Positions 27,435 through 63,019 of a DNA stretch of 64,000 nucleotides are shown here, one piece after another. The DNA lies in NCBI GenBank assembly GCA_043228905.1, contig JBHGNT010000006.1, forward strand, positions 11,284,001 to 11,348,000. The letters are read 5' to 3'. The translations under genes were made by a program, and so were the position numbers. This DNA comes from Azolla caroliniana (Eukaryota > Plantae > Polypodiophyta). Each line of letters starts with the position of its first letter. Positions within the stretch are counted from its first letter, which is position 1. Below the pieces are notes generated by a model, which was given only the letters and a program-made list of their open reading frames with translations, had not been told where the DNA came from and made no database searches.

Positions 27435-30400
27435 TGTTGAGCGGCAAGCTCAATTGGAGCCGGATCGGCTGAATAAGCATGAGCCGGTGAGCGAGACGGA
27501 TCGGTGAGCCAATGAGCACCTAGTGAGCAAAAGAGCCGGTGAGCTGGGGAGCCAGTTAGCCGGATCCAGCAGTAAACGGAAGCCTAGTAATAGCTTAGAT
27601 TACTAGGTAGTTATTGTCTTGTAGTTAGTGTCAAACTCTCGTGTGAGCATTGAAGTACGTTGTACTTCTGTCAGTCCCATGGGGACTTGTATAAATAGTG
27701 TTGTTAAGCACGCTGTATGCACAGAGTGTTGATATAATTTTTGAATTTAGATTCTTGTTCTGCTCTCTCTGTCTCTCCCGAGTACTCTCTGTATTCTGTG
27801 TATTATTCTCTCTCTCTCTGCTGCTACACAACCAAGTTGTTGTCTTATGCTTCCGCACATATGTTTTAACATGGTATCAGAGCACGAGGGTTGAAGACCT
27901 TGAAGCCGACATTTGCTTTCGCAAGACAAACCCTACAGGTTATGAGAACAGAACAGTAGACAGAGAAAAAATATAGATAGAGGTATGGCGAGTTCACTTC
28001 ATACAGAGAAGGTTGAGCGGAGGAACTACGTGTCCTAGTCATACAAAATGCACCAGTACCTACTGGGGCATGGGTATTGGAGTTTCGTGGAAGGAATGAA
28101 TGAGGTAGCACCAGTGCCTGCACACAAGGACTTCCCGCTATGGGAGCAAGGAGCGAGCCGAGTATTATACTACCTCACATCCTGTGTGCACGACCACATG
28201 CTCGACTACATCAGGGATGCAAAGACGCCAAAGGAGGCCTGGGAAAATCTGCGTAAGATTTTCACCACAAGTACCACAACCCGCAAGTTGTAGCTCCGGC
28301 AAGAGCTGAACAACATCCGACAAAGAGATATGTCGGTTACAAACTACACCACCAAAATAAAGGAAATTTGCAATGCGCTCAGGTCCATCAACGTGACGGT
28401 GGACGAAGACGAAATGGTACAAATCTGCCTTGGTGGTCTAGCACAAATGTACAGGCCAATCCGGACAGCGATCTGCACCCAAGAGAAACCACCGACCTTC
28501 TTCAACTTGCAATCAATGCTGATGGTCGAAGAAAACCACGCGAGTGGGTCCAGGACCACTCAATCAAACAACCGGATGATGTACACGGAGGCGGATGGGT
28601 CCCGTGGGCATGGGGGACGAGGTGGGTCGACACGCACTGGAGGCGGTCAGCAAGAGCAGGAAAGAAGGCACAGAGAATGTGCCGATAGCAGTTCCGAGAC
28701 TTCCACAAGTAGGGGGAGTCGAGGCGGCGCCGGAGGCCGGCAAGACAAATCCGCCACGGAATGCTGGTACTATGGCAAAAAGTGCCACAGAGAAAGCGAG
28801 TGCTAGAAGAAGCATGCCGATTCAGATAGACCTGGATCCGACAAAACCGGTCGGGAGAACTGGCAATACTCGCACTACGCAGAAGGATCGGGAGGATCCA
28901 AAACTAGAAAAGCCGGTAAGGGGCCAACCTTGGTGATGAAGCACGAGGCAAATTCGATGAAGAAGACCACTTCCAAATCGGAGGAAGTATGGTATGTTGA
29001 TTCCGGTGCGTCGAATCACATGACGAGCCACAAAGAGTGGTTCTCCTTCTTGGAGAAACCGGAACAACCGGGGGTTGTCGAAACCAGAGACGACACTCCT
29101 CACGCAATCGTGCATGTCGAAGAAGTCCCTTTGAGCCACGTCAGATAGAGGTGGAAGCTGATGAACGTATTACACGTTCCGACTATCACGAAGAACCTGG
29201 TGTCAGTCGGTTAGATCGTTGACCAGGGGATGCAGGTGCGGTTTACACACCTCGGGTGCTTCATTGAGGATGAGGGCCAGATTATTGCGCAAGGGCGCTC
29301 TCGTAGTGTAATTCCCACACTACGTGAAAAATTACATTTTGGTCTGTCCGGATAGGACATGGAGTACCCGGTGAGAACCGGAAGAAGGAACTGGTAAGGA
29401 CCGAAACCGGTAAGGAGACCCGACAAGAGCTGGATGAAGAAGGCCGGTGAGAGTCGGTGAGAAATGGACAAAGAGATCGGTAAGGAGGTCCCGGTAAGAA
29501 CCGGACAAAGAAAACTAACAAGCACCGGATGAAGCAGAACCGGAAAGAGCCGGATGAAGAAGGCCGGTGAGAGTCTCTCACCGGATGAAGAGAGATATTT
29601 GTAAATAGAAGAAAGCATAAAACTATATATTACATGCATAGGGCAAGAATCGAACCTTGCACCTCCATGTTAATAATGTTAAGCCTTATCCTTATACTAG
29701 CGTATTATGAATTTTAAAGTTATACTAAACTTTATCCCATGTAAAATTTCTAGACATGCATGGTACAAAAAGTTATTCATGCATAGACACTCGAGTTAAA
29801 AGAAAAGATGAGATAGGAAGCTAATCATGCACATGCAGTGTGCATGAAAACTAAAGATAGGAAAAGCATGATGCTTGCATGTGATAAACTTAGACTCTTC
29901 CAACACTATATAAGGAAGAGAGAAAGATGTATAGAGGTTGTTGATTATTTTACAAGGGTTGATTAATATAATATAATCGTGGGATCCACGAATTTGCTAA
30001 CTATTATTCTCTTAATTTGAGTACTCACTAATACACTATACTCATGGGATTCACAAGTTTTTCATATCTTTCTTTCTCACAATATATTTCACATTCTTAA
30101 TTGCCTTAGAATTTTCCTTCCTCCTAGTCCAAAACCCCAGTGGTTCCCACCTGACTCACGCAACGATCCGGAGCCGAAAGGCACGACAGCGCAGAGATGG
30201 GAGGATGTTCATCCTTGACACCAATGACGTCGGCACCACTTTATTCGCCAAAAGACAGAAGATCAAATTGGACATCGACTTGTGGCACAAGAGGATTGAC
30301 CATGTCAATTACCGGAGGCTTCAAGACCTGCAGACGAAACAAGTTGTTTTCGGTTTGCTGAGGTTCAGTGGCCGGAAGGCCCAAATATGTGAAGCCTGCC

Positions 30401-33400
30401 AGCTAGGGAAGCAACACTGGGTTGCATTCCCCACCGAACGAAACTGTAGCCGTAACAAGCTTGACCTTATTCATTCGGATGTACGGGAACCGGCACAGAA
30501 CATGAGTCTTGGCGGGAGTCAATACTTCGTCTCCTTCATCAACAACTATAGCCGGCACACATGGATCTACCTCATTGAGCGGAAGAGCGAAGTGCCTGTG
30601 GTCAGATGGCGGAAAAGAATATTTTTCCGGCCAATTCAACAGCTATCTGCAGCAAACAAGAATTCGGAGAGAGTTCAGCTGCAGATACACACCGGAGCAA
30701 AACAGTTTGGTCGAAAGGAAGAACCGGTAGCTTATTGACGTGGCAAGGGCAATGCTGGAAAAGAAGAGCATGCCCCATTTCTACTAGGCGGAGACGGTCC
30801 GGACAACCGTCTACATTCAGAACTGGATCGGTGACAAGGTGTCCGCGCATGAGCTGTATTTTGGGCGCAAGCTGAATTTGAGACACCTTTGGATATTCGG
30901 CAACATAGCATATGTGCAAGTGCTAGATGAGAAGCGGAGGAAGTTGGATGCAAAGTCGGAGAAATGCATCATGGTCGGTTACTTGCATGAGCAAAAGGGG
31001 TATAAGTGTTATAACCCCCGGACGAAGCAGGTCCGAGTTAGCCGCGATGTCGAGTTCAATGAAACGACATCATGGTACTCCTTACCAACTTCGACTTCCG
31101 ACCCCGACCCGATGCCGGAGGATGAGGCTAGTGAGCCTGAACCGGCCCAAGTAGAAGATGATGAATCCGGGACTCAAGAAGAGAGTCCGGAATCATTTCA
31201 GTTGAGTGGGCCGAATAAGAGACTGGGTCAATCCGACCAGTCAGATGAGGAACCGGCGAGTAGTGAAGACTCTGTCATGCTCTCCCCGCGCAAGGAACCG
31301 AGGAGACGGTTCACGCGCAAAGAAAAGGGGAAGAAGAGGATGCCGGAATACGAAACCGGCAACGATGAGTCGGATCGGAGCGAATCCAATTCCGGTATGA
31401 AAGAAGGCGGATCCTCGTCAACAAAGACCGCACCGGGCAAGAAGGGCCTCAAACCGGGTAACGTTGAGTTACGCCAGTCAACCTGACAGAAGGAACCTTT
31501 TAAGCGGTACGGGTACAATGAGTACATGGTGCATCACTATGCGTACATGACCAAGGTGGCGGAAGTGCGTGAGCCGGAGAGCTACGTAGAAGCGGCAAAG
31601 GACGCAAATTGGCATGCCGCTATGGAGGATGAAATGCGGGCACTTGATGCCAACGACACATGGGACCTAGTTGACCCTCCCCGACACTATAAACCGATTG
31701 GATGCAAGTGGGTGTACAAAGTAAAGTACAACGCCGACGGTTCAGTTAACTGGAAAAAGGCCCGGTTAGTGGCGAAGGGATCACGCACCGGTTGCGTAAG
31801 GTGGGGTTTGCGGCCTCCAAGTCCGACTCTTCATTGTTCATCCGGCAAGGTCCGGACGGTCCGGTTTGCATCCTGCTATATGTTGATGATCTAGTCATCA
31901 CTAGACCTAGACTCGATGAAATCAGCCAAGTCAAGTCCCAGTTGTCGAATGTATTTGAGATGAAGGACCTAGGCGACCTTCACTATTTCCTTGGGATCGA
32001 GGTGATCCGAACCCCCGACGGCATATTGATCTCACAAAGACACTATGTGTTGAATATGTTGTACAAGTTTGGCATCATGGAATGCCGACCGATCTCCACA
32101 CCCCTAGACCGGAACCAGAAGCTCTGTCCTGACTCTGAACCGGCCTGCGATGAGAAACGGTTTCGACCAATCGTCGGAAGCCCTATATATTTGACAATCA
32201 CCCGACCCGACATCAATTATCCGGTCAACGTGATCAGCCAATATATGCAGAAGCCGACCGTGGAGCACCTTTTGTGCGCGCATCAAATTTTGCGATATGT
32301 GAGCAGCACGAAGGACCGGGGACTGTTATACCGGCATGATAAAACCGAAGAGCTAGTCGGCTACACCGATGCCAACTGGGCCGGCAATTCATCGGATCGC
32401 CGATCCACCTCCGGCTATATGTTTTCCCTAGGTAGCGCGGCTGTTGCATGGAGCAGCAAAAAGCAGCTAACAATGGCTCTATCGAGCACTGAGGCTAAAT
32501 ACCGGGGCGCTACTGTTGCCACCTGTGAAGCCATTTGGCTTTGGCGACTGCTGCAAGACCTGCGGATCGAGGTGCCGACCCCGATCTTGATCTACTGCGA
32601 CAACATAAGCAGCATGCAGCTCGCCAAGAACCCCGTATTCCATGCTCACACAAAGCACATAGAAGTGCACTACCACTTCGTGTGTGAGTGTCCTGAGCGG
32701 TGAAGTCGAACTTTGGTATGTTCATACGGATCGGCAAGTTGCCGACATCTTCACCAAACCGCTCGGATCGGACAAGTTGCAGCACTTCACGAAAATGCTT
32801 GGTGTTCAGCATCTTGACGTGCCACACTTGAGGGGGAGAATGGGCAAAGACACCAGAACGGGCAAAGGCAAAGAAACAGTTGATTGCGCCGGTGAGGGAG
32901 GAACCGACAAAGGGGGAGACAAGAGGAAGAAAGGAGCCGAGTCGATAAAGGAAGTTGACACATCCGAACAAGTCGGAACAAGCGGCAGCGGCGGCAGAGT
33001 CAAGAAGGACAAAGCCGACCGGAAGAAGAAGGCCAAGACCCGGACATGGTCCGATGTGGTGAAGGGCCTAGAACCGGAAGACGAATTGGGAGCAACCGAT
33101 TCGGACAAGAGCTGGAACGAATCGAAGACAACCGATTCGGTTCAATAGATGGATTCAGAAGAACCGGATTAATTCAAGGCCAAGAGGACGAGATGGCAGC
33201 AAAAGTCGATGCCAACACGAAGGAATCGGTAGGTCGAGAAGCGCCAAAGTCACAACAGCGAGGGAGCTAAATTGGGCCTGTTGAGCAGATGAGCTAACCA
33301 AGAAGGTCGAGGTGCGCAGAACAAGAGGGGTCGCGGAAAATAGAACCGGACCGGACGAGGAGCGCGAGCGAGGCGGAGCGATGCCAGAAGGAACCGGGTA

Positions 33401-33900
33401 GAAGGACTGGTTGCCACAAACGTTGACACTAAGACCGGACCTCAAGTTGAGCTTGAGGGGGAGTGTTGAGCGGCAAGCTCAACTGGAGCTGGATCGGCTG
33501 AATAAGCCTGAGCTGGTGAGCGAGACGGATCGGTGAGCCGGTGAGCACCTGGTGAGCAAAAGAGCCGATGAGCCGGGGAGCCAGTTAGCCGGATCCAGCA
33601 GTAACCGGAAGCCTAGTAATAGCTTAGATTACTAGGCAGTTATTGTCTTGTAGTTAGTGTCAGACACTCGTGTGAGCATTGAAGTACGCTATACTTCTGT
33701 TAGTCCCATGGGGACTTGTATAAATAGTGTTGTTAAGCACACTGTATGCACAGAGTGTTGATATAATTTTCGAATTTAGATTCTTGTTCTGCTCTCTCTG
33801 TCTCTCCCGATTACTCTCTGTATTCTGTGTATTATTCTCTCTCTCTCTGCTGCTACACAGCCAAGTTGTTGTCTTACGCTTCCGCACATATGTTTTAACA
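27435..33900 (+). mobile_element. Copia family A copy A2, degenerate, with internal deletions and a solo-LTR insertion
   Basis: 437-bp LTRs at 27435-27871 and 33464-33900. PBS at 27872-27883. PPT GAGGGGGAG. Near-match TSD CAGGG/CAAGG. gag ~27985-28806, protease 28930-29290, integrase 30205-31486, RT with a deletion near 31780, RNase H to ~32830. Confidence 0.94.
29299..30188 (+). mobile_element. Solo LTR (family F, probably gypsy), copy 1, with 4-bp TSD GCGC
   Basis: Termini T(C)TCGTAGTG...GGCACGACA. GCGC at 29295-29298 and 30189-30192. The host A2 sequence rejoins exactly when compared with A1. Homologous to 55184-56002 and 56355-57115. Confidence 0.85.
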
Positions 33901-38828: not shown

Positions 38829-41211
38829 AATGCATCATTGGTATTATGTGTTTACCATTCTAATCTGTCTTCACATCCATAGCTTTCTTTTTTGCATTGT
38901 TGTATGCCTTTTCATTGTTTTTGGCTAGTATCAGATTTGCATCTGACCTTTAGGCAATCACATATATGATTTGAAAGGGTCTGGGCTGTCGAACCACGTC
39001 TCTCGAAATTTATCAGTACATATGGCAGAAAACACTTTTCACATATCGAGGTCGGAATGGGATCTGATTCGGGTGTTTCATGTCTTACAAAGCTACCTGG
39101 ACGTAACGAAACGCTCGATTAATGAACAAAAGAGTGTTAACAACAAAAGCGGCCGACGCCGAATAGCAAGCAAGCAAACAAGGAAAGTGCAAATACAATT
39201 GGTACTTCGCCTTCGATCACTACCAACCTCACAAGGATGTCATCAATTCGCAGGTGGTTATTAAGTAAAAAGTGTAATATATATGGCTAACAAACCAAAG
39301 TTCTTCTTTTGAACTTTCAAGAAGGCCTGAATATTCATAGATTATTATACGATAATCTTTAATGCGGCTCAGATTGCGGAAAGAATTGAATGCTAGAATT
39401 TCGAAATTCCGTTGGTAAAATTAAGAAGGATCATGCAAGAAGGCAATATCATCTTTTGGCCATAAGGTGCGAATCCAACACTTTTCTTTTCACTTTAAAG
39501 TAGTCAGCGACAATCTTGATGAATCAATGGCAAGAAGATGCTTTGCACTTTTCATTCCACTTCAAAGCAACAATCTTTGAACTCGGAAATGGAAAAAGAG
39601 CTTGGAAGAAGAATGGGCTAAGGACGGAGTCAAACCGTCATTCCAGGATTTGCAGTCCAATACATTGCCATTATGTTACCCAGCCAATAGAACGTTTTTC
39701 CCGCTTAAATGAAGAGAGGCGGGACTATCATTTCATTTAAGGGGGGTGACCTTAGGCCACCATTTGAAATAATCTAAAGCCTTACAATCAATTTCTGTGA
39801 TGCCATAAAATGTGAAACAACAACAATTTTGGGTAAAATAAGAATTAGTGATTGAAAAAGACCCACAACTTGCTTGTGAAGCCGACCAACGTATGCCAAC
39901 ACAACTTGTTTATGCCTATTAAAGAACCTTTTAATGCTAATTCACAAAAAACCATTCGAACCATACAAAATAACTAATATACGAAACGATTGTCGGAATT
40001 GGTTGCAATTGCTTGCAAGATTTGTATGATTATTCTTGACAAAAAAAAAAGAATTGATTATTCTACATAAACTCTAATCCAACCAAGGTTGCTCCTTAGT
40101 CCTACCATTATATTTAATGCATTATCCATATTTGGTATAAAGTATACACATGTGCATTAAGGGTACGTGACATTATATTTCAGGTTTGAATTTGACATGA
40201 CTAAATTTATTCTCATTGTCTGATTGTATAACATAGATTATAAATGCATCATATGAGCACAAAGTACGATATAAAAGGGGTTAAAAAGACACCAATCTAG
40301 AGGTAAATTTTCAAGCAAAAACTAATTAGGGAGAAGTTGTCCCAATGGTTGATCATGCTGTGTAGAGTTGGGTGAGGATATCTTCACATATGGCTATCAT
40401 TACTTTAGAGAAGTTTCTGAATCATCTCCCATCATGGATCAAGGGGCATGCAGCTATAATAAATGGCACTTTCTTCCATTATTTCAAGCAAATACTTGTC
40501 ACTTTCATCAATGCTCCAACAATGTTCCCGATTTTGTCCATATGCCAACCATCTTCAGAATGAGAATTTCACTCTAAAGCAATTCTGTGTAAGAAATGAA
40601 CTAGCTCAGCGGTTTCAATCTTTGTTACCAGTTTAATTCTCCACTAAATTTTGGGTTCCAATTTTCATTTATAATTACTCAAATTGCTTACTTTTTATCG
40701 ACTTCAAAATTTGGGGAAAATGTTTGGTGTCTTACCAATTCGGACACCAATATATATTGGGTACTTCATATGTCATCTATTTATTGTCACTGATGTGAAA
40801 ACAAGATTTTAAGAGAGAATTCCAACCAACGCCAAAATGCCTCTAGCCATTCAGAATCCCGTGAAGTGTATTTTTTATATTTCTATATTAAGATGTCAAA
40901 ACTTAATGAGAAAATAAAGCTTTAGGCTACACATCTAAGGCTTTATAATAACTAAACTGATAGATATTTTTCCAATATGATAAACCAAAATGAAGATCAG
41001 CATTAATAACGTGTTTGAACAAAAATGTATATTGTGGTGCATTTTGCCTTTCCAGCATATTGAGGGGTTTTGGGCTTTGAGGTGTATGGTTTATGGTTAA
41101 CGGTTTCGGATTTGATGGCTTATACGATTTTAGGTTTATAGAGTTGATATGGTTTATGGTTGAAACTATGTAGCATTAAATACCAACCATGTTCACAAGG
41201 CATGGGCTCTT

Positions 41212-55082: not shown

Positions 55083-55183
55083 CAACTCATGGCCCTTTTG
55101 CATATTGCGTTCTATATGCCACTCTCCCCTCTATTGAGCCATCAATTGGTTGATTCTATGGGATGTAGTAGTCTTGACCACGA

Positions 55184-56002
55184 TGTCGTGCCTTTCGGCT
55201 CCGGATCGTTGCGTGAGTCAAGTGGGAACCACCGAGGTTTTGGACTAGGAGGAGGAAGAATTTGAGGCTAATCTAGTTATGAATATGAATAGATTATAAG
55301 AAAGAGATATAGAAACTTGTGAATCCCACAAGTATAATTGTTTTAGTTTATCTTAATCGTAGTAATAAATTGAAATAGTTTAGAATAGGTTAGCGTAGAT
55401 TGAGAAAAGAGATCAAACCTTGTGAATCCCACAAGTATTACATTAATCAATATTTATGTAAGAATATGAATTTAGATTGAAAGATTATATAAAACTTCGT
55501 GAATCCCACGATTCTATTTTATTATTGGTGTTTTAGGAAATATATCCAATTTCCCAAATATTTCACAGACACCTTACATTGTGCTCCCTATCCTTATGTA
55601 GTGATGAGGGAGTCTTAGCAATCCATGCTTTTTCTTCTCTAACTATAGACTTTATGCTTTATCTAAAGTGATCATGCTTTTTCTATCTTGTGCGTTTTTT
55701 ATCGACTATAACGTTCATGCACGCTAGATATGCATGCGTAGCTTTTTCTTTTAGCATGCGTTTTCCTTTTAACTAAAGTTTATCCTACATGAACTTACGT
55801 TTTTTATGTGGGACATCTATTTTTTAATATGAATGAAATGCTAGTGTAATGGTAAGGTTTTATATTATTAAGATGGAGGTGCAAGGTTCGAATCTTGCCC
55901 TATCCATGTTATATACTTTTTAATATTTTCTACTATTTATTCATATTTATTAAATCAGTACTTTATAAGTTTTTCACGTAGTGTACGAAATACACTACGA
56001 CA
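55184..56002 (-). mobile_element. Solo LTR family F, copy 2, with 4-bp TSD ACGA
   Basis: TGTCGT...ACGACA termini. ACGA at 55180-55183 and 56003-56006. Confidence 0.88.
55835..55906 (+). other. tRNA-like (box A/box B) cassette in family F LTR (also 56947-57018 on + and 29635-29707 on -)
   Basis: TAGTGTAATGGTAAG ... AGGT GCAAG-GTTCGAAT-CTTGC. Confidence 0.62.
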
Positions 56003-56354
56003 ACGAGCATGTCGACTACCCTAGGGCTTCTTTCCTAAGGGCATGCTTAATGTTTCATACACCCATTTGATTATTATTCTAATTATTTTCTAATTATACA
56101 AGTTGTCTTCCCACTTTCTTATGGTTTTCTTGTAATTGTCATCTACTCACTAACACTTAACTCTATTTATTACTGTTAATTTTTATGTTCATCTACACTA
56201 TTTACATGCATTTCCCTAATAATGGTGTAATGATTCCGTGTAGACTATTTTTTTGCATTGAGTGGGCATCATGCCAATTTTTGAACATTTTTTCCAAAGT
56301 GACATCTAGGTTTAAGTCATGTAATCAAGCCTTAGAACTCGATTAGAAACACGT

Positions 56355-57115
56355 TGTCATGCCTTTCGGCACCAGATCGTTGCGTGAGTCGGGTGGAAAC
56401 CACTGGGGTTTTGGACTAGGAGGAAGAAGAATTTGAGACTAATTAGAATATAGATAGGTTGTAGGAAAGAGATATAGAAACCTCGTGAATCCCATGAGTG
56501 TATTGTATTAGATTAATCAATATAAAGATAATAATATGAATTTAGATAGAAAGAGAAGGATATAGAAACCTCGTGAATCCCACAAGTATAGTTTATTTCA
56601 TGAATCCCACAAATATAATTTATTAATTGGTGTTTTTAGAAATATATCCAATTTCCAAATATTTCACACCCTTATTACATTATGCTCCCCATCCTTATAT
56701 AGTGATGAGAGAGTCTTCGCAATTCATGCTTTTTATCTAATTATGCCCTCCATGCCTTTTCTATCAATAGACTATATGCTTTCTCTAACATGCTTTTTCT
56801 AAAGTCATTCGTTTTTTTTATCGACTATAGTGTTCATGCACGCTAGATGTGAATGTGTAGCTTTTTCTTTTATCATGCGTTTTCGTAAAGTCTATCCTAG
56901 CGTGAACTTACCTTTCTATGTGGGACATCTACTCTTTGACACTAATGATATGTTAGTGTAATGGTAAGGCTTCACATTATTAACATGGACGTACAAGGTT
57001 TTAATCTTGCCCTATGCATATAATATACATTTTGATATTTTCGTCGGTTTCTTCATATTTATTAAATCGGGTACTTTATACGTTTTTCACGTAGTGTACG
57101 AAATACACTACGACA
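56355..57115 (-). mobile_element. Solo LTR family F, copy 3, with 4-bp TSD ACGT
   Basis: TGTCAT...ACGACA termini. ACGT at 56351-56354 and 57116-57119. Collinear with copy 2. Confidence 0.88.
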
Positions 57116-57636
57116 ACGTGAGTTCACCTATGATGTTTTACACATTGTTGCACACAACACCACCACTTGTATCAATTTGTGGCCTTATGTTTGCAATTGT
57201 GCAAATCATATCACTATATTTGGATGGATATGTGCATACATTGTGTCAGAACCAAGGATAAAAGATAGAGTGATGGAAGAAGGATAGAGAAGAATGGATG
57301 TATAAGATAGAGAAAGAAAGAGAATGGATACAAGATATGTAATGAGAGCTAAAGACTGGTGTTGATTCGAATTGATTTGAGAATACATGTATGCGCTTAT
57401 TTATAGGTTTCTATAGAATAGCTTAGAGATTTCTAGAATGTTCTAGAATGTTCTAGACCTAGAATGCTCTAGGACATTCTAGAACATTCTAGAATAATCT
57501 AGAGTTTTTACAATAATCAATGTAATACAAGAAGTAGCTTTTATTGTTTCATATAACAATAAGCTATCTTAATGGTTGAGGTTTTCAAGTATGAATTACA
57601 AGGTTCGAGGTTCAAGTCCGGGTGACGCCATAATGG

Positions 57637-60600
57637 TCATGTGTTCATGACACTATCCCTCCTTCGAGAACGCCGAGTGGAAGTCAGCGTTAACATTGTT
57701 GGGCTGGGCTTGTTTGGATAGTGACGATGGAAGTCGGTGACCAGAGCTTCAGCATTACAAATGTTATCGATAGGTTCCCAATCACTCGGAGGATAACCAA
57801 GCCAATCAACTAGATAATAAAGCTTATTGCGCACAATCTTAGAATCGAGAATAGCAGCTACCTCGTATTCGGGGCCATCCACAAGTTGTATAGAAGGCGG
57901 TGGTGGCACAACACGATTAGGAATTAAAGAGGTGTGGCAAGGTTCCAAAAGAGAGCTATGAAAGACAGGGTGAAGCCGCATATGTGCAGGAAGGTTAAGA
58001 CGAAATGTTGCATCATTAATCTGCGCCGTGATGACAAAAGGACCTAAGCGTTGATAGTCAAGCTTAGCACACGGTCGGGTAGTCTTGATGTGACGACGAA
58101 GCAACCATACACGGTCACCAACCTTAAACGGAGACTTAAGACGATGTCGATCGGCATTGGTCTTATGGTGTGCTTGCGCTTTCTGAAGATGTGACGATAA
58201 CTCGAACTGGATTTGTTGTAGTCGGTGGAGGTGATGCGCCGCACTAGGGTTTCGTGACACCTCGGGAAGATCCAGTATACACCATCGAGGGTGGTTGCCG
58301 GTGTAGGCAAAGAAAGGTGTAACTTTGGTAGAAGAGTGGACCGTGTTGTTGTATGCAAACTCGGCAAGATGTAAAATTTTACTCCAATCATCTTGTTGAT
58401 AACTAATGAAACATCGAAGATATTGCTCGAGCGTTTGATTTGTGCGCTCTGTTTGTCCGTCAGTTTGTGGATGATAAGCCGAAGAGAGTTTGCAAGAGAT
58501 TTTGAGGCCTGCCCATAGGTGCTTCCAAAAGTGTGAGATAAATTGAGGACCTCGATCGCTAATAATATCATTCGGGAGACCATGATGGCGAAACACTTCA
58601 CGCATAATGAGATATGCAGTTTCTTCACTATTAATGGTCTTTACACATGGTACAAAATGTGCCATCTTGGTGAACCGATCCACTATTGTTAAAATAGTAT
58701 CAAAGCCTTTGGAAGGTGGCAGATCCGTAATGAAATCCATAGAAATAGACTGCCATGGCTTGTTGGGAGGGGGTAATGGTTGTAGTAAGCCATAAGGGTG
58801 ATGTCGGGGTATTTTGGCACGACAGCAGGTGTCACAAGTGCGAACATAATCTTCGACAAATTTTTGCAAGTGAGGCCACCAAAATGAACGTTTCACCAGC
58901 TCAATGGTCTTGGAAATACCAAAATGTCCAGCCATGGGGGCATCATGACAATGTTCCAACACTTGAAGTCGGGGTGATCCGTCGGGGACGTAAAGGAGAT
59001 TCTTGTAGAAGAGTAAACCATCTTGCCACTTGAAGTCCTGATAATGTTGAGATGACCCTGGCAATGTGGAGCAAGATGGACGACTTGAACCACAGTGGGC
59101 TAAGACATCCTTAGCAAAATCATCCAAATGAAGTTGTTGCCGAATAGTGTCAAGAAGGGTAGAATCAAGTGGTGTGGCATAAATTGTTGTTACCTGTAGC
59201 TTTGATGGCCCGAGGAGAGTTTGCTTTTGATTGTCAAAGGCCGGATCTCCAGGTCGAAGGGCTAGATACGAACGCCGAGACAGAGCATCTGCTTTCCCTT
59301 GTTGTTTTCCGGGGCGAAAAATGATCTTGAAATCGAAACGCGTTAGAAATTGGGCCCACCGAGCTTGTCGTCTATTTAATACTCGAGCTGTTTGAAAATA
59401 TGTGAGATTTTTGTGATCACTATAAATGATAATCTGATGAGGTGATCCTTCTAGAAAATGACGCCATTGCTCAAATGAGTCGACCACAGGTAGTAACTCC
59501 TTGTCATGCACCTCATAGTTTATCTCCGAAACAGTAAACTTTCTCGAGTGAAACGCGACTGGATGTATCTGCCCGTCCTCGCCTGGTTGCGATAGGATAC
59601 TCCCCAATGCAAAGTCTGATGCATCCGCCTCAATAGTAAATGGCTTTTCAGGATCAATATGTGCTAGGATGGGTGCTGATGTGAATGCCTCTTTCAGTTG
59701 CGTAAAAGCCTTGTCCGCTTCGATACTCCAAAAAAATGCTTGATTTTTCTTGGTGAGTTGAGTAAGGGGCAACACAATGCTTGAATAATTATGTATGAAT
59801 TTGCGATAGAAGTTCGCAAATCCGAGGAAACACTGGACATCCCGAACTGAGCATGGGGGTTTCCATTCCAATATTGTTTGGACTTTTGCCGAGTCCATGA
59901 AAACACCCTGGGATGAAATAGTATATCCCAAAAATTCAACTTGTTTGCAATCAAAACTGCATTTCTCAAGTTTGGCGTAAAGACCATACTTCCTTAGGCG
60001 TTCAAGTACTTGCCGCACATGTATATCATGCTCCCCCTGTGTTTTAGAGTAAATCAATAGATCATCTAGGTAGATGATTAGAAAAATATCCAAGAAATCC
60101 CGGAAGATGTCATTTGCCATATGTTGGAATACGGCAGGTGCATTTGTGAGCCCGAAAGGCATGACTGTATACTCGAAATGACCATACCGAGTACGAAATG
60201 TTGTTTTCCACTCATCTCCCGGCCGAATTCGAACAAGATTATATGCACCCCTTAGATCAATTTTGGTAAAATGCTTTGCCCCACCAATGCGTTCTAAGAG
60301 ATTGGAGATTAAAGGTAAAGCATACCTATTCCTTATGGTGACTTTATTTAAGCCTCGATAGTCCACGACCAAACGAAGGGAGCCGTCCTTTTTCTTCACA
60401 AAAAAGATAGGAGCACCAGCTGGAGACTTTGAATGTCGAATAAACCCATGTGCAAGATTTTCCTCGATGTATTCTCGAAGAACCTCAAGCTCAGTGGGTG
60501 ATAAATTGTAAATCGGACCCCACGGAGGCTCTTTTCCTGGTTGGAGATCAATAGGACAGTCGTACGGCCGATGCTTTGGAAGAACTCTAGCTTTGACTTT

Positions 60601-61260
60601 GTCGAAAACATTAGCATAGTCTTGATATTTTTTGGGAATTTGGATGTCTGAATTCCCTTGAGTGACACTAGAAGGTGTCACTGATACTGCAAATAAGAAA
60701 AGGTCCTCCTTGCCTCCCACTTGGTGCAATTGATGCAATGTGATGGCTGAAATTTGATGAGAAGGATATGGTGCATTGGTAGAACTATATACTTTGGGAG
60801 GATAATCCCGAGTTCGATCCTTGAGAATGATATTTTCTGCTAAAGGGCACCTAATTTCTCGCTTCCTCCAATCGATTCTAGGGTTATGTAGCTCGAACCA
60901 TGGCAAACCGAGGACAATTGGATGCTCAGGACTACAGATTATGTTAAAGGAAACTACACATCCTAAATCACCCAAGAGTATGTGTATTGGCTCAGACTCT
61001 TCAAATATCTTCCCGGAAGCAATGGGGCGTCCATCAATCACTACTACGGAAACTGGACAAGGAAGTGTATGCAAGGATATTTGGTGTTTTTGGGCAAAAT
61101 CTCTATCCATGAAACAAGAATTGGCTCCAGTATCTAAGAGGGCTTGGACTTGAAGTTGACAACTGGGTGTCCTAACTTGTACTAGGGCTGGGAAGACTCT
61201 ACTAACATGCTTGGAAGAAATGGAACCCACACTAGGTTGTACATATCTAGGGTTGTCCAA
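57637..61260 (-). CDS. pol: Pol polyprotein: protease, RT, RNase H, integrase, chromodomain
   Basis: 1207-aa ORF with LLDTGA, IYLDD, DASDF...SDHKNL, HHCC and DDE integrase, and C-terminal EYEVAAILDS...YLVDWLGY. In the -1 frame relative to gag; that frame is open back to ~61323. Confidence 0.96.
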   Translation of the reverse strand: MDNPRYVQPSVGSISSKHVSRVFPALVQVRTPSCQLQVQALLDTGANSCFMDRDFAQKHQISLHTLPCPVSVVVIDGRPIASGKIFEESEPIHILLGDLGCVVSFNIICSPEHPIVLGLPWFELHNPRIDWRKREIRCPLAENIILKDRTRDYPPKVYSSTNAPYPSHQISAITLHQLHQVGGKEDLFLFAVSVTPSSVTQGNSDIQIPKKYQDYANVFDKVKARVLPKHRPYDCPIDLQPGKEPPWGPIYNLSPTELEVLREYIEENLAHGFIRHSKSPAGAPIFFVKKKDGSLRLVVDYRGLNKVTIRNRYALPLISNLLERIGGAKHFTKIDLRGAYNLVRIRPGDEWKTTFRTRYGHFEYTVMPFGLTNAPAVFQHMANDIFRDFLDIFLIIYLDDLLIYSKTQGEHDIHVRQVLERLRKYGLYAKLEKCSFDCKQVEFLGYTISSQGVFMDSAKVQTILEWKPPCSVRDVQCFLGFANFYRKFIHNYSSIVLPLTQLTKKNQAFFWSIEADKAFTQLKEAFTSAPILAHIDPEKPFTIEADASDFALGSILSQPGEDGQIHPVAFHSRKFTVSEINYEVHDKELLPVVDSFEQWRHFLEGSPHQIIIYSDHKNLTYFQTARVLNRRQARWAQFLTRFDFKIIFRPGKQQGKADALSRRSYLALRPGDPAFDNQKQTLLGPSKLQVTTIYATPLDSTLLDTIRQQLHLDDFAKDVLAHCGSSRPSCSTLPGSSQHYQDFKWQDGLLFYKNLLYVPDGSPRLQVLEHCHDAPMAGHFGISKTIELVKRSFWWPHLQKFVEDYVRTCDTCCRAKIPRHHPYGLLQPLPPPNKPWQSISMDFITDLPPSKGFDTILTIVDRFTKMAHFVPCVKTINSEETAYLIMREVFRHHGLPNDIISDRGPQFISHFWKHLWAGLKISCKLSSAYHPQTDGQTERTNQTLEQYLRCFISYQQDDWSKILHLAEFAYNNTVHSSTKVTPFFAYTGNHPRWCILDLPEVSRNPSAAHHLHRLQQIQFELSSHLQKAQAHHKTNADRHRLKSPFKVGDRVWLLRRHIKTTRPCAKLDYQRLGPFVITAQINDATFRLNLPAHMRLHPVFHSSLLEPCHTSLIPNRVVPPPPSIQLVDGPEYEVAAILDSKIVRNKLYYLVDWLGYPPSDWEPIDNICNAEALVTDFHRHYPNKPSPTMLTLTSTRRSRRRDSVMNT

Positions 61261-61286
61261 CCAAATGGCTCCTATTTTGGCCGGAC

Positions 61287-62450
61287 TTATTCGTTTGACT
61301 CCTCTTCTAATTGGCTTAGGACTTCAAATTTATTGGACAAGGGTGGATTATTCATAATATTAGATTCACTAACTACTTCTAAAATGTTGGACTCATTTTT
61401 ATTGTCATAGTGAATTTGATTTACCTGACGTCTCGGCCTACGGGAGCAATGAATGGCTATATGTCCTGGACCTCCACAATATAAGCACAGATGGTTTGCT
61501 CGACGACGTTGCTTCTCTTCGTCTGACAACGATCCTCGTCGTTGAGTCATATCGATCTCCATGGGTGTAGGACTATCCATTGGGACTGGACTACGTGTTT
61601 GCCTTGGAGTTGGAGCAGGGCTATACATTTGCCTTGGGGATGATTTCGCCGTTACTGATGCATAAGTTGGTGTGAATCTAGATCTTGTTATTTGTTGTTG
61701 TCGCTCACATCGACGCTCAAAAAGGCGATTATCACACCGTATTGCTCGACTAATAGCTTTTGTAAGTGACCTTGGATCCTCGGGGAAGGTAAGAAGTAAG
61801 TCTTTGACATCACTACAAAGGCATGAACGGAATTGCTCCATTAGGGCTTGTTCATCCCAAGGAATATTGCTTGCGATGAGACGGAAATTGGCAGCATATG
61901 TTGAAGTTGGTTGATCACCTTGACGAAGTGTACGAATCTTGTTGATAGCTGTTCTCGCCCCATCAGTATCTCCGAAACAAGCCTTAAATTCCTTGATAAA
62001 TTCCTCGAAATTATTCAGTAGAGGAGAATTGGTCTCTAGCAATGGAGCAAACCACGACAACGCTATGCCAGTCAATAAAGTGCCCACTAGCCCGACTTGT
62101 GATGCATCTGTTGGATAACGTGCGGGATGCATTTGAATCACCAACCGTACTTGATTCAAAAAACCTCGGAAATGCGCCCTCGACCCATCAAATTTAGCTG
62201 GGAGGCTAATTTTGGGCTCCTTGATAAGTCCGTGACCTTCAACCCTTTGTTGTTGTAACACGACGATTGTCGACTCTAATTGTTGCACTCGTCGCGTGAA
62301 CTCCTCTTGTTGTTGTTGCTTCTCTATAGTAACCTTTTGTAGATCCCCAAGTAGACGTTGATTCTCTACTTCAAGAGATGCGAACTTGGATTTAAGGTTC
62401 TCCATTTCTGCAACAAGGGTGAGATATTCTTCTGAGTTAATGGCAGCCAT
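61287..62450 (-). CDS. gag: Gag protein of the chromovirus
   Basis: 387-aa ORF with an N-terminal coiled coil, PKISLPAKFDG capsid start, LRQG motif, PMEID and a CLYCGGPGHIAIHC knuckle. Confidence 0.95.
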   Translation of the reverse strand: MAAINSEEYLTLVAEMENLKSKFASLEVENQRLLGDLQKVTIEKQQQQEEFTRRVQQLESTIVVLQQQRVEGHGLIKEPKISLPAKFDGSRAHFRGFLNQVRLVIQMHPARYPTDASQVGLVGTLLTGIALSWFAPLLETNSPLLNNFEEFIKEFKACFGDTDGARTAINKIRTLRQGDQPTSTYAANFRLIASNIPWDEQALMEQFRSCLCSDVKDLLLTFPEDPRSLTKAISRAIRCDNRLFERRCERQQQITRSRFTPTYASVTAKSSPRQMYSPAPTPRQTRSPVPMDSPTPMEIDMTQRRGSLSDEEKQRRRANHLCLYCGGPGHIAIHCSRRPRRQVNQIHYDNKNESNILEVVSESNIMNNPPLSNKFEVLSQLEEESNE

Positions 62451-62670
62451 GGTTTCAGGATGGTTACAAAGGAGGATAAGAGAGAGTGAGAGAGAGAGAG
62501 AGAATTCGAATCAAACTGTCAAAACCAAGGATAAAAGATAGAGTGATGGAAGAAGGATAGAGAAGAATGGATGTATAAGATAGAGAAAGAAAGAGAATGG
62601 ATACAAGATATGTAATGAGAGCTAAAGACTGGTGTTGATTCGAATTGATTTGAGAATACATGTATGCGCT

Positions 62671-62776
62671 TATTTATAGGTTTCTATAGAATAGCTTAGA
62701 GATTTCTAGAATGTTCTAGAATGTTCTAGACCTAGAATGCTCTAGGACATTCTAGAACATTCTAGAATAATCTAGA
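62671..62776 (-). promoter_or_regulatory. LTR promoter: TATA box plus upstream heat-shock-element-like array (also at 57398-57503)
   Basis: TATAAATA at 62678-62671. TTCtaGAAtgTTCtaGAAtgTTC and further TTCTAGAA units at 62704-62776. Confidence 0.7.
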
Positions 62777-62830
62777 GTTTTTACAATAATCAATGTAATA
62801 CAAGAAGTAGCTTTTATTGTTTCATATAAC

Positions 62831-62903
62831 AATAAGCTATCTTAATGGTTGAGGTTTTCAAGTATGAATTACAAGGTTCGAGGTTCAAGTCCGGGTGACG
62901 CCA
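62831..62903 (+). other. tRNA-like (box A/box B) cassette in the chromovirus LTR U3, antisense to the element (also at 57558-57630)
   Basis: TATCTTAATGGTTGAG ... AGGT ... GGTTCAAGTCC ... CCA with tRNA-like spacing. Acceptor stem does not pair. Confidence 0.6.
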
Positions 62904-63019
62904 TAATGGTCATGTGTTCATGACACATTGCACCCTCCATTTATTTGTGACATTTTGTTTTAGTAGGTAACACATGGTTTTTTGAACCTTGTTTTCACCA
63001 CTTCTTGACTCGTATAGGT

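What the first reader, a model, noticed from the sequence alone, without database searches (positions are those of the whole stretch)
29295..30192. Solo-LTR family F has 4-bp TSDs that are all centred on CpG
The three insertions have TSDs GCGC (29295), ACGA (55180) and ACGT (56351), consensus RCGN. Two lie in AT-rich DNA where CG is scarce. The other elements here have 5-bp TSDs with no such bias. This suggests an integrase that selects CpG (possibly methyl-CpG) sites, a sequence-level route into heterochromatin. The sample is only three.
Basis: partly seen in the sequence, partly recalled or inferred. Interest (0 to 1): 0.7.

Follow-up and report, generated by a model that had tools for sequence, protein, structure and literature searches.

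The report
CG-targeting Phygy-type plant retrotransposon
These are leftover ends of a plant jumping gene that almost always sits in a CG site, a habit already reported for the Phygy group, and its integrase likely reads the CG sequence itself rather than a methyl mark.

Summary
Of 881 exact copies of this LTR start, 304 follow the polypurine tract. Of the other 577, 530 (92%) have CG in the middle of the 4-bp flank and 37 have TG or CA, against a 3.1% CG background. The motif is V-CG-B (best ACGT), not RCGN. The parents are non-chromovirus Ty3/gypsy elements with a tRNA-Trp primer site and no chromodomain. That profile, with a 4-bp NCGN TSD, is what Neumann et al. 2019 give for Phygy, so the CG preference is already in print; placement in a tree could not be tested. 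Methyl-CpG reading is not supported. 87% of insertions lie in repeats, and CG density plus the ordinary repeat bias of two Copia controls predicts 86%. New here: the strictness, the refined motif, gag-only derivatives, a young intact sister family, the same preference in distant relatives, and candidate integrase residues. Verdict: a new member of a known kind, with an open mechanistic question.

The parts
29295..29298 (.). Copy 1 left TSD, GCGC
   Evidence: Sequence; single 4-mer in 20 uninterrupted Copia paralogues
29299..30188 (+). Solo LTR copy 1 (890 bp, sense on +), first dinucleotide mutated TG to TC; carries about 215 bp of extra GC-rich short repeats; inserted in a Copia element
   Evidence: orientation from PBS and PPT positions in genomic sisters
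30189..30192 (.). Copy 1 right TSD, GCGC
55180..55183 (.). Copy 2 left TSD, ACGA
55184..56002 (-). Solo LTR copy 2 (819 bp, sense on -)
56003..56006 (.). Copy 2 right TSD, ACGA
56351..56354 (.). Copy 3 left TSD, ACGT
56355..57115 (-). Solo LTR copy 3 (761 bp, sense on -)
57116..57119 (.). Copy 3 right TSD, ACGT
27435..33900 (+). Host Copia element that received copy 1 (context; LTRs 95% alike, 5-bp TSD CAGGG/CAAGG)

Best explanation
The three pieces are solo LTRs of a Ty3/gypsy retrotransposon family with the features of the Phygy clade, and its integrase likely selects the palindromic site V-CG-B by reading the DNA sequence itself, not a methyl mark. SHOWN: 4-bp CG-centred TSDs genome-wide; 5' LTRs followed by a tRNA-Trp primer site and 3' LTRs preceded by a polypurine tract; parents with gag-protease then RT-RNase H-integrase and no chromodomain. 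INFERRED: the intasome bends the target at a central pyrimidine-purine step and avoids T/A at the TSD edges, as 4-bp-TSD retroviruses do, and added base contacts narrow that step to CG. Candidate contacts, untested: a family-specific conserved loop (SLxxQH) between the first two strands of the SH3-like C-terminal domain, and an acidic residue at the position of PFV Ala188, which would more likely shape the flanks. INFERRED: CG sites are about three times denser in repeats here, so this preference plus ordinary loss of insertions from unique DNA would pile copies into TE blocks. The young gag-only copies were likely moved in trans by coding relatives, and solo LTRs arose by LTR-LTR recombination.
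For: 530 of 577 non-PPT LTR starts have a central CG and 567 of 577 have CG, TG or CA. Of 37 TG/CA flanks, 29 had a traceable partner: 22 CG, 6 identical, 1 discordant, so most are later decay. 41 of 53 paired TSDs are identical at 4 bp, and 0 of 35 solos match at 5 bp. 15 of 20 intact sister copies gave both flanks and all 15 are NCGN; 3 more gave a left flank only, also NCGN. 8 of 9 plausible flanks of related elements in metagenome contigs are NCGN. The PBS matches tRNA-Trp(CCA) genes of this genome, 5 of 5 loci checked. Pfam shows no chromo, MBD or SRA hit in pol at E<=1, while the same library finds Chromo in the neighbouring element. The best fold matches are PFV and Ty3 integrases. Central YR and T/A avoidance at the edges are general to 4-bp intasomes (PMC4422553, passages). 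ZAM integrase binds its CGCG site directly (PMC2527525, abstract). Flank CpG o/e equals that of random V-CG-B sites (p=0.7). Repeat fraction is 52/60 observed against 85.7% predicted from CG availability (397/600) times the Copia odds ratio (23/35 against 231/600).
Against: No methylome or biochemical data were seen, so a methyl contribution is not excluded. Most CGs in repeats are probably methylated, which makes the two models hard to separate in standing copies. The raw repeat excess over random V-CG-B sites is significant (52/60 against 397/600, p=8e-4) and is removed only by a small Copia control (35 flanks, all from one chromosome). The 600 control sites come from 40 blocks and are not independent, and the repeat library was partial. 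TG/CA is the only tolerated alternative (6 identical pairs; none seen among the 6 AG/GG/TA sites), which a methyl-reading pocket would also predict. The residue candidates rest on alignment and a model of pLDDT 74.5, pTM 0.53, without DNA. The exact 28-nt pattern favours younger copies and omits copy 1.
Confidence: 0.72

Rival explanations
1. The integrase needs or strongly prefers methylated CpG, reading the 5-methyl group in the intasome, and so targets silenced DNA without a chromodomain.
For: Only TG/CA, the thymine half-mimic of mCG, appears as an identical non-CG TSD (6 pairs against 1 discordant, p=0.0625). 87% of insertions lie in repeats against 66% of available sites. Target CpGs decay to TG/CA in paralogues as methylated sites do.
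Against: No methyl-reader domain. The repeat excess is matched by Copia families with no CG bias. TG+CA make up 14% of dinucleotides yet give only about 1% of sites, and a G-reading, YR-bending integrase explains that too. Two copies in this window sit in CG-poor, largely unique DNA. ZAM reaches a CG-centred 4-bp site in Drosophila, which has little CpG methylation (recalled).
Confidence: 0.14
2. The CG motif is read by sequence, but a host tether or chromatin state, perhaps through the acidic C-terminal tail, adds targeting to heterochromatin.
For: Homologues end in an acidic tail after the SH3-like domain (25 tails printed). Phygy is reported enriched at centromeres of a liverwort (PMC12885004, passages). 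78% of 32 copies on contig C1 lie in its middle half.
Against: The tail is not conserved in sequence. A Copia family has the same spread on C1 (KS p=0.99), and neither differs significantly from uniform. No extra term is needed.
Confidence: 0.11
3. The CG bias is an artefact of small numbers, local composition, or CG-bearing LTR ends being mis-set.
Against: n=577 at 92% against 3%. Ends are fixed independently by PBS and PPT junctions, and empty-site paralogues hold one 4-mer. 0 of 35 Copia flanks have a central CG.
Confidence: 0.01

Closest known systems
Phygy clade, non-chromovirus Ty3/gypsy of Physcomitrium patens (Neumann et al. 2019, PMC6317226; passages and supplementary table 3 read)
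   Same: 4-bp TSD with NCGN preference (100% of 186 elements), tRNA-Trp PBS (81%), no extra domain, no extra ORF, coding region fills the interior.
   Different: Described as P. patens-specific. Here it is in another genome, with named relatives in Riccia and Adiantum. The intact sister is 7.3 kb against 7.7-10 kb. The motif is resolved to V-CG-B, and gag-only derivatives are abundant. No tree with Phygy references could be built.
ZAM and Tirant errantiviruses of Drosophila (PMC2527525, abstract; PMC5408687, passages)
   Same: Ty3/gypsy integrase with a palindromic CG-centred target (CGCG); direct binding by the integrase shown for ZAM.
   Different: Insect lineage with three ORFs and AGT/AnT ends; the site is CGCGCg, not V-CG-B. 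This family has TG...CA ends.
Prototype foamy virus intasome and other 4-bp-TSD retroviruses (PMC4422553 and PMC6784120, passages)
   Same: 4-bp stagger, central YR step, T/A avoided at TSD edges; closest solved integrase by sequence and fold.
   Different: Their preference is weak and covers any YR; here it is 92% CG. The Ala188 position is neutral and compact in retroviruses but Glu/Asp in 99 of 99 homologues aligned here.
TatI (REXdb; PMC6317226, supplementary table)
   Same: 4-bp TSD and tRNA-Trp PBS.
   Different: TatI has an additional archaeal-type RNase H in 100% of elements; only one RNase H region is seen here, and no NCGN bias is listed for TatI.
TR-GAG non-autonomous elements (PMC4350172, search listing and start of abstract only)
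   Same: Under about 4 kb, LTRs, PBS, PPT and one gag ORF, like most paired copies of this family.
   Different: Described from angiosperms; here derived from a Phygy-type parent, with only the gag N-terminus followed by an acidic repetitive tail.

Membership tests
Ty3/gypsy LTR retrotransposon | TG...CA LTRs with PBS and PPT; order gag-protease-RT-RNase H-integrase | tested here: met
Phygy | 4-bp TSD with NCGN preference | tested here: met
   530 of 577; 41 of 53 pairs identical; 0 of 35 solos match at 5 bp
Phygy | PBS complementary to tRNA-Trp | tested here: met
   The PBS complement lies at the 3' end of tRNA-Trp(CCA) genes, 5 of 5 loci scanned
Phygy | No chromodomain, no aRH, no extra ORF; coding region spans nearly the whole interior | tested here: met
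   One intact copy examined: two overlapping frames (712 and 1241 aa stop to stop) span LTR to LTR; no Chromo and one RNase H region at E<=1
Phygy | Length 7.7-10 kb (descriptive; the authors call size of little value for classification) | tested here: inconclusive
   Intact sister about 7.3 kb; decayed copy L035 about 7.1 kb
Phygy | Clusters with P. patens Phygy in RT/RH/INT trees | not testable with these tools
   No Phygy reference sequence was at hand; no named P. patens protein among the 120 listed hits of either search or the cluster members listed
Chromovirus (Tcn1, e.g. RLG1) | Chromodomain after the integrase; 5-bp TSD; self-priming | tested here: not met
   positive control: Chromo found in window 57640-61323
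TatI | Additional aRH domain | tested here: not met
   Pfam scan of pol
Methyl-CpG-guided integration | Preference for 5mCG over CG | not testable with these tools
   Only proxies: need no methyl term; searches give a weak TG/CA tolerance

The most novel reading that the evidence does not exclude
Phygy-type integrases across liverworts, mosses and ferns read methylated CpG directly in the intasome, with no chromodomain. They would use the host's own silencing mark as the insertion signal, and the rare TpG/CpA targets would be thymine mimics of 5mC.
Probability: 0.14. Interest if true: 0.8.

Novelty: new member of a known kind. Interest (0 to 1): 0.3.

Why it matters
A plant LTR integrase with near-strict sequence specificity is the one exception in the REXdb survey. 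In the library searched it is noted only there (NCGN with retrotransposon; Phygy, 18 papers listed, of which I read passages of three). This genome shows how strict the rule is, and that a two-base preference can steer a transposon into TE blocks simply because CG sites are denser there. Many young copies with open frames make the CG-against-5mCG question directly testable, and a methyl-reading integrase would be new. Each insertion also duplicates a CpG, which gives a small clock for methyl-C decay.

Tried and rejected
(1) A tRNA-like A-box/B-box stretch inside the LTR looked like a Pol III promoter. ARAGORN did not call it and Rfam gave no tRNA hit at E<=10; dropped. (2) I first recalled RLG1 as the Phygy family. 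PMC7466625 (passages) says RLG1 has a chromodomain, so that label was rejected. (3) Two homologue searches and one cluster look-up gave no named P. patens protein, so no membership tree was built. (4) The first Copia control failed to remove 14 PPT-side ends, so its repeat counts were discarded and redone. In the cleaner pass, 5 of 14 rows did not begin like an LTR end or lay inside elements and were dropped, leaving 9; the one non-CG row (CCAG) may be a PBS variant. (6) 8 of 37 TG/CA sites had no traceable partner end; 6 of the 22 CG partners carry a second mismatch and 3 lie in rearranged or nested copies. (7) No RNA holder listed for the integrase region. (8) Kitamura 1992 on CpG methylation and retroviral integration is not held; only its title was seen, in a reference list. 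(9) GingerRoot (PMC6839031, passages) and a Cryptococcus paper (PMC12810828, passages) were not relevant. (10) Searches combining moss or bryophyte, CpG and target preference found nothing on methyl-guided Phygy insertion; subscription journals are mostly missing from the library.

Full report
Observation. The three bodies align as one family with conserved ends and variable middles. Copy 1 interrupts a Copia element. Twenty uninterrupted paralogues have one 4-mer at that spot, GCGC in 7, so the duplication is real. Copies 2 and 3 lie in CG-poor DNA (6 CG in 500 nt, 3 in 344, 0 in 119). Other window elements have 5-bp TSDs.

Genome-wide test. The window lies on contig C6 of a 523-Mb genome. 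An exact 28-nt LTR start occurs 881 times, 304 of them after the polypurine tract. The other 577 split into CG 530, TG 20, CA 17, AG 3, GG 1, TA 2 and 4 purine-A by subtraction. Background CG is 3.07% and TG+CA 14.0% in 40 evenly spaced 10-kb blocks of C1 and C2. I fetched 82 LTRs in list order from C1 and C2, without choosing by flank; this is most but not all of the listed places. They gave 60 left and 54 right flanks. The logo is palindromic V-CG-B with ACGT commonest (22 of 60); T at position 1 and A at position 4 are nearly absent. Of 53 paired TSDs 41 are identical, 10 differ at one base and 2 at two, and 0 of 35 solos match at 5 bp. In two Copia families 0 of 35 flanks have a central CG.

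Non-CG sites. For the 37 TG/CA flanks I traced the other end in 29: 22 have CG (later deamination), 6 are identical TG/TG or CA/CA, and 1 is CA/TG. Double decay should give about as many discordant as identical pairs, so 6 to 1 hints at rare primary TG/CA targets (p=0.0625), about 1% of sites. Of the 6 AG/GG/TA sites, 3 have a CG partner, 1 is a degraded PPT, 1 is mismatched and 1 is unresolved.

What the family is. 5' LTRs are followed, mostly after a 4-nt spacer, by a PBS. Its complement is the 3' end of this genome's tRNA-Trp(CCA) genes (65 pattern matches, 5 of 5 scanned loci). Most paired copies are 3.1-4.4 kb and match the coding parent only at the gag start and near the PPT. Two inspected copies keep one gag-like frame, and 4 of 18 LTR pairs are identical, so they likely moved recently in trans. 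Full-length copies with this LTR type that I saw (L035, L037) are decayed Ty3/gypsy. A sister family, 89-91% identical in the integrase core, has many copies with an open 1,241-aa pol frame. Of 20 fetched, 15 gave both flanks, all NCGN; they share the termini, PBS and PPT and are about 7.3 kb. Pol has RT, one RNase H region, H2C2, rve and an SH3-like end, with no chromodomain. The neighbouring element at 57244-62925 does have one. Named relatives are Riccia and Adiantum proteins at about 70-77%. Related elements in metagenome contigs keep the tRNA-Trp PBS, and 8 of 9 plausible flanks are NCGN; these contigs may come from hosts close to this one.

How it likely works. Integrases that leave 4-bp TSDs favour a bendable central YR step and avoid T and A at the TSD edges (PMC4422553, passages). 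V-CG-B is that rule with YR narrowed to CG, which needs base contacts. PFV uses Ala188 and Arg329 for base contacts (PMC6784120, passages), and PFV is the closest solved integrase. The residue aligned to Ala188 is Glu or Asp in 99 of 99 homologues, whereas retroviruses have neutral compact residues there; it contacts bases outside the TSD in PFV, so it is a lead for the flanks. A conserved loop (Gln 85 of 87, His 84 of 87) lies between the first two C-terminal strands, ahead of a short helix in the model. That PFV Arg329 sits in the equivalent loop is recalled. These are inferences. ZAM shows that a gypsy integrase can bind a CG-centred site directly (PMC2527525, abstract).

Heterochromatin and methylation. 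Here CG frequency tracks repeat content (Spearman 0.76), and V-CG-B sites are 24.4 per kb in repeats against 7.5 outside. Insertion flanks hit repeats in 52 of 60 cases, random V-CG-B sites in 397 of 600 and random positions in 231 of 600. The excess over available sites is significant (p=8e-4). However, Copia flanks, with no CG bias, are also enriched (23 of 35, odds ratio 3.06), and that ratio applied to CG availability predicts 85.7% against 86.7% observed. Flank GC, CG frequency and CpG o/e do not differ from random V-CG-B sites (p=0.07, 0.24, 0.7). So no methyl term is needed, but none is excluded: the controls are small and clustered, and no methylome was seen.

Comparison with what is known. 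Neumann et al. 2019 state that Phygy elements prefer NCGN, and tabulate 186 elements with a 4-bp NCGN TSD (100%) and tRNA-Trp PBS (81%) (PMC6317226; passages and supplementary file 3). Their element list and sequence file were not among the supplements I saw and could hold a finer motif. Jedlicka et al. 2019 also note 4-bp Phygy TSDs and GC-rich centres in 4-bp TSDs (PMC6911290, passages). All testable Phygy features are met except a slightly shorter length; tree placement was not testable.

Verdict. The feature is real and strong, and already known at clade level. The additions are its strictness, the V-CG-B motif, the wider host range, gag-only derivatives and a passive explanation for the bias to TE blocks. 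Interest 0.3. The methyl-reading version has about 14% probability and would merit 0.8.

Noticed in passing
window 57244-62925 (-): Young chromodomain-bearing gypsy element (Tcn1-like, label recalled): LTRs 99.8% alike, open 407-aa and 1,228-aa frames, TSD CATTG, 124 bp from copy 3's TSD.
   Followed up: partly
5' LTR-PBS junctions, e.g. L059, L074, L234: The PBS usually starts 4 nt after the LTR's CA, longer than the 2 nt I recall for retroviruses; relatives show 1-6 nt. This may mean a longer cDNA overhang to be processed.
   Followed up: no
L142 2223-3575 (-), L169 1315-3066 (+): Non-autonomous copies keep an open gag N-terminus fused to a long acidic, repetitive tail, in two length classes (interiors about 1.6 and 2.1 kb), like TR-GAG elements.
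   Followed up: partly
window 29641-29703 and equivalents in copies 2 and 3: Antisense stretch resembling tRNA A-box/B-box motifs, shared by all three LTRs; not called by ARAGORN or Rfam.
   Followed up: partly
control blocks L182-L221: CpG observed/expected is near 1 in TE-rich blocks and 0.3-0.6 in repeat-poor blocks, the reverse of the usual picture of CpG loss in old TEs.
   Followed up: partly
G000 C8 near 17.80-17.82 Mb and C16 near 4.99-5.11 Mb: Clusters of tRNA-Trp 3'-end matches, those on C8 spaced about 1.2 kb apart, suggest tandem tRNA gene arrays.
   Followed up: no
L064, L127, L235; G000 C6 15501765-15507502: Tandem or self-nested arrangements of this family, including an LTR just upstream of another copy's PPT and a three-unit array.
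   Followed up: no
window 39615-39685 (-): tRNA-Cys(GCA) gene.
   Followed up: no
window 1-38000: Dense nest of Copia elements with large inverted and direct repeats.
   Followed up: no
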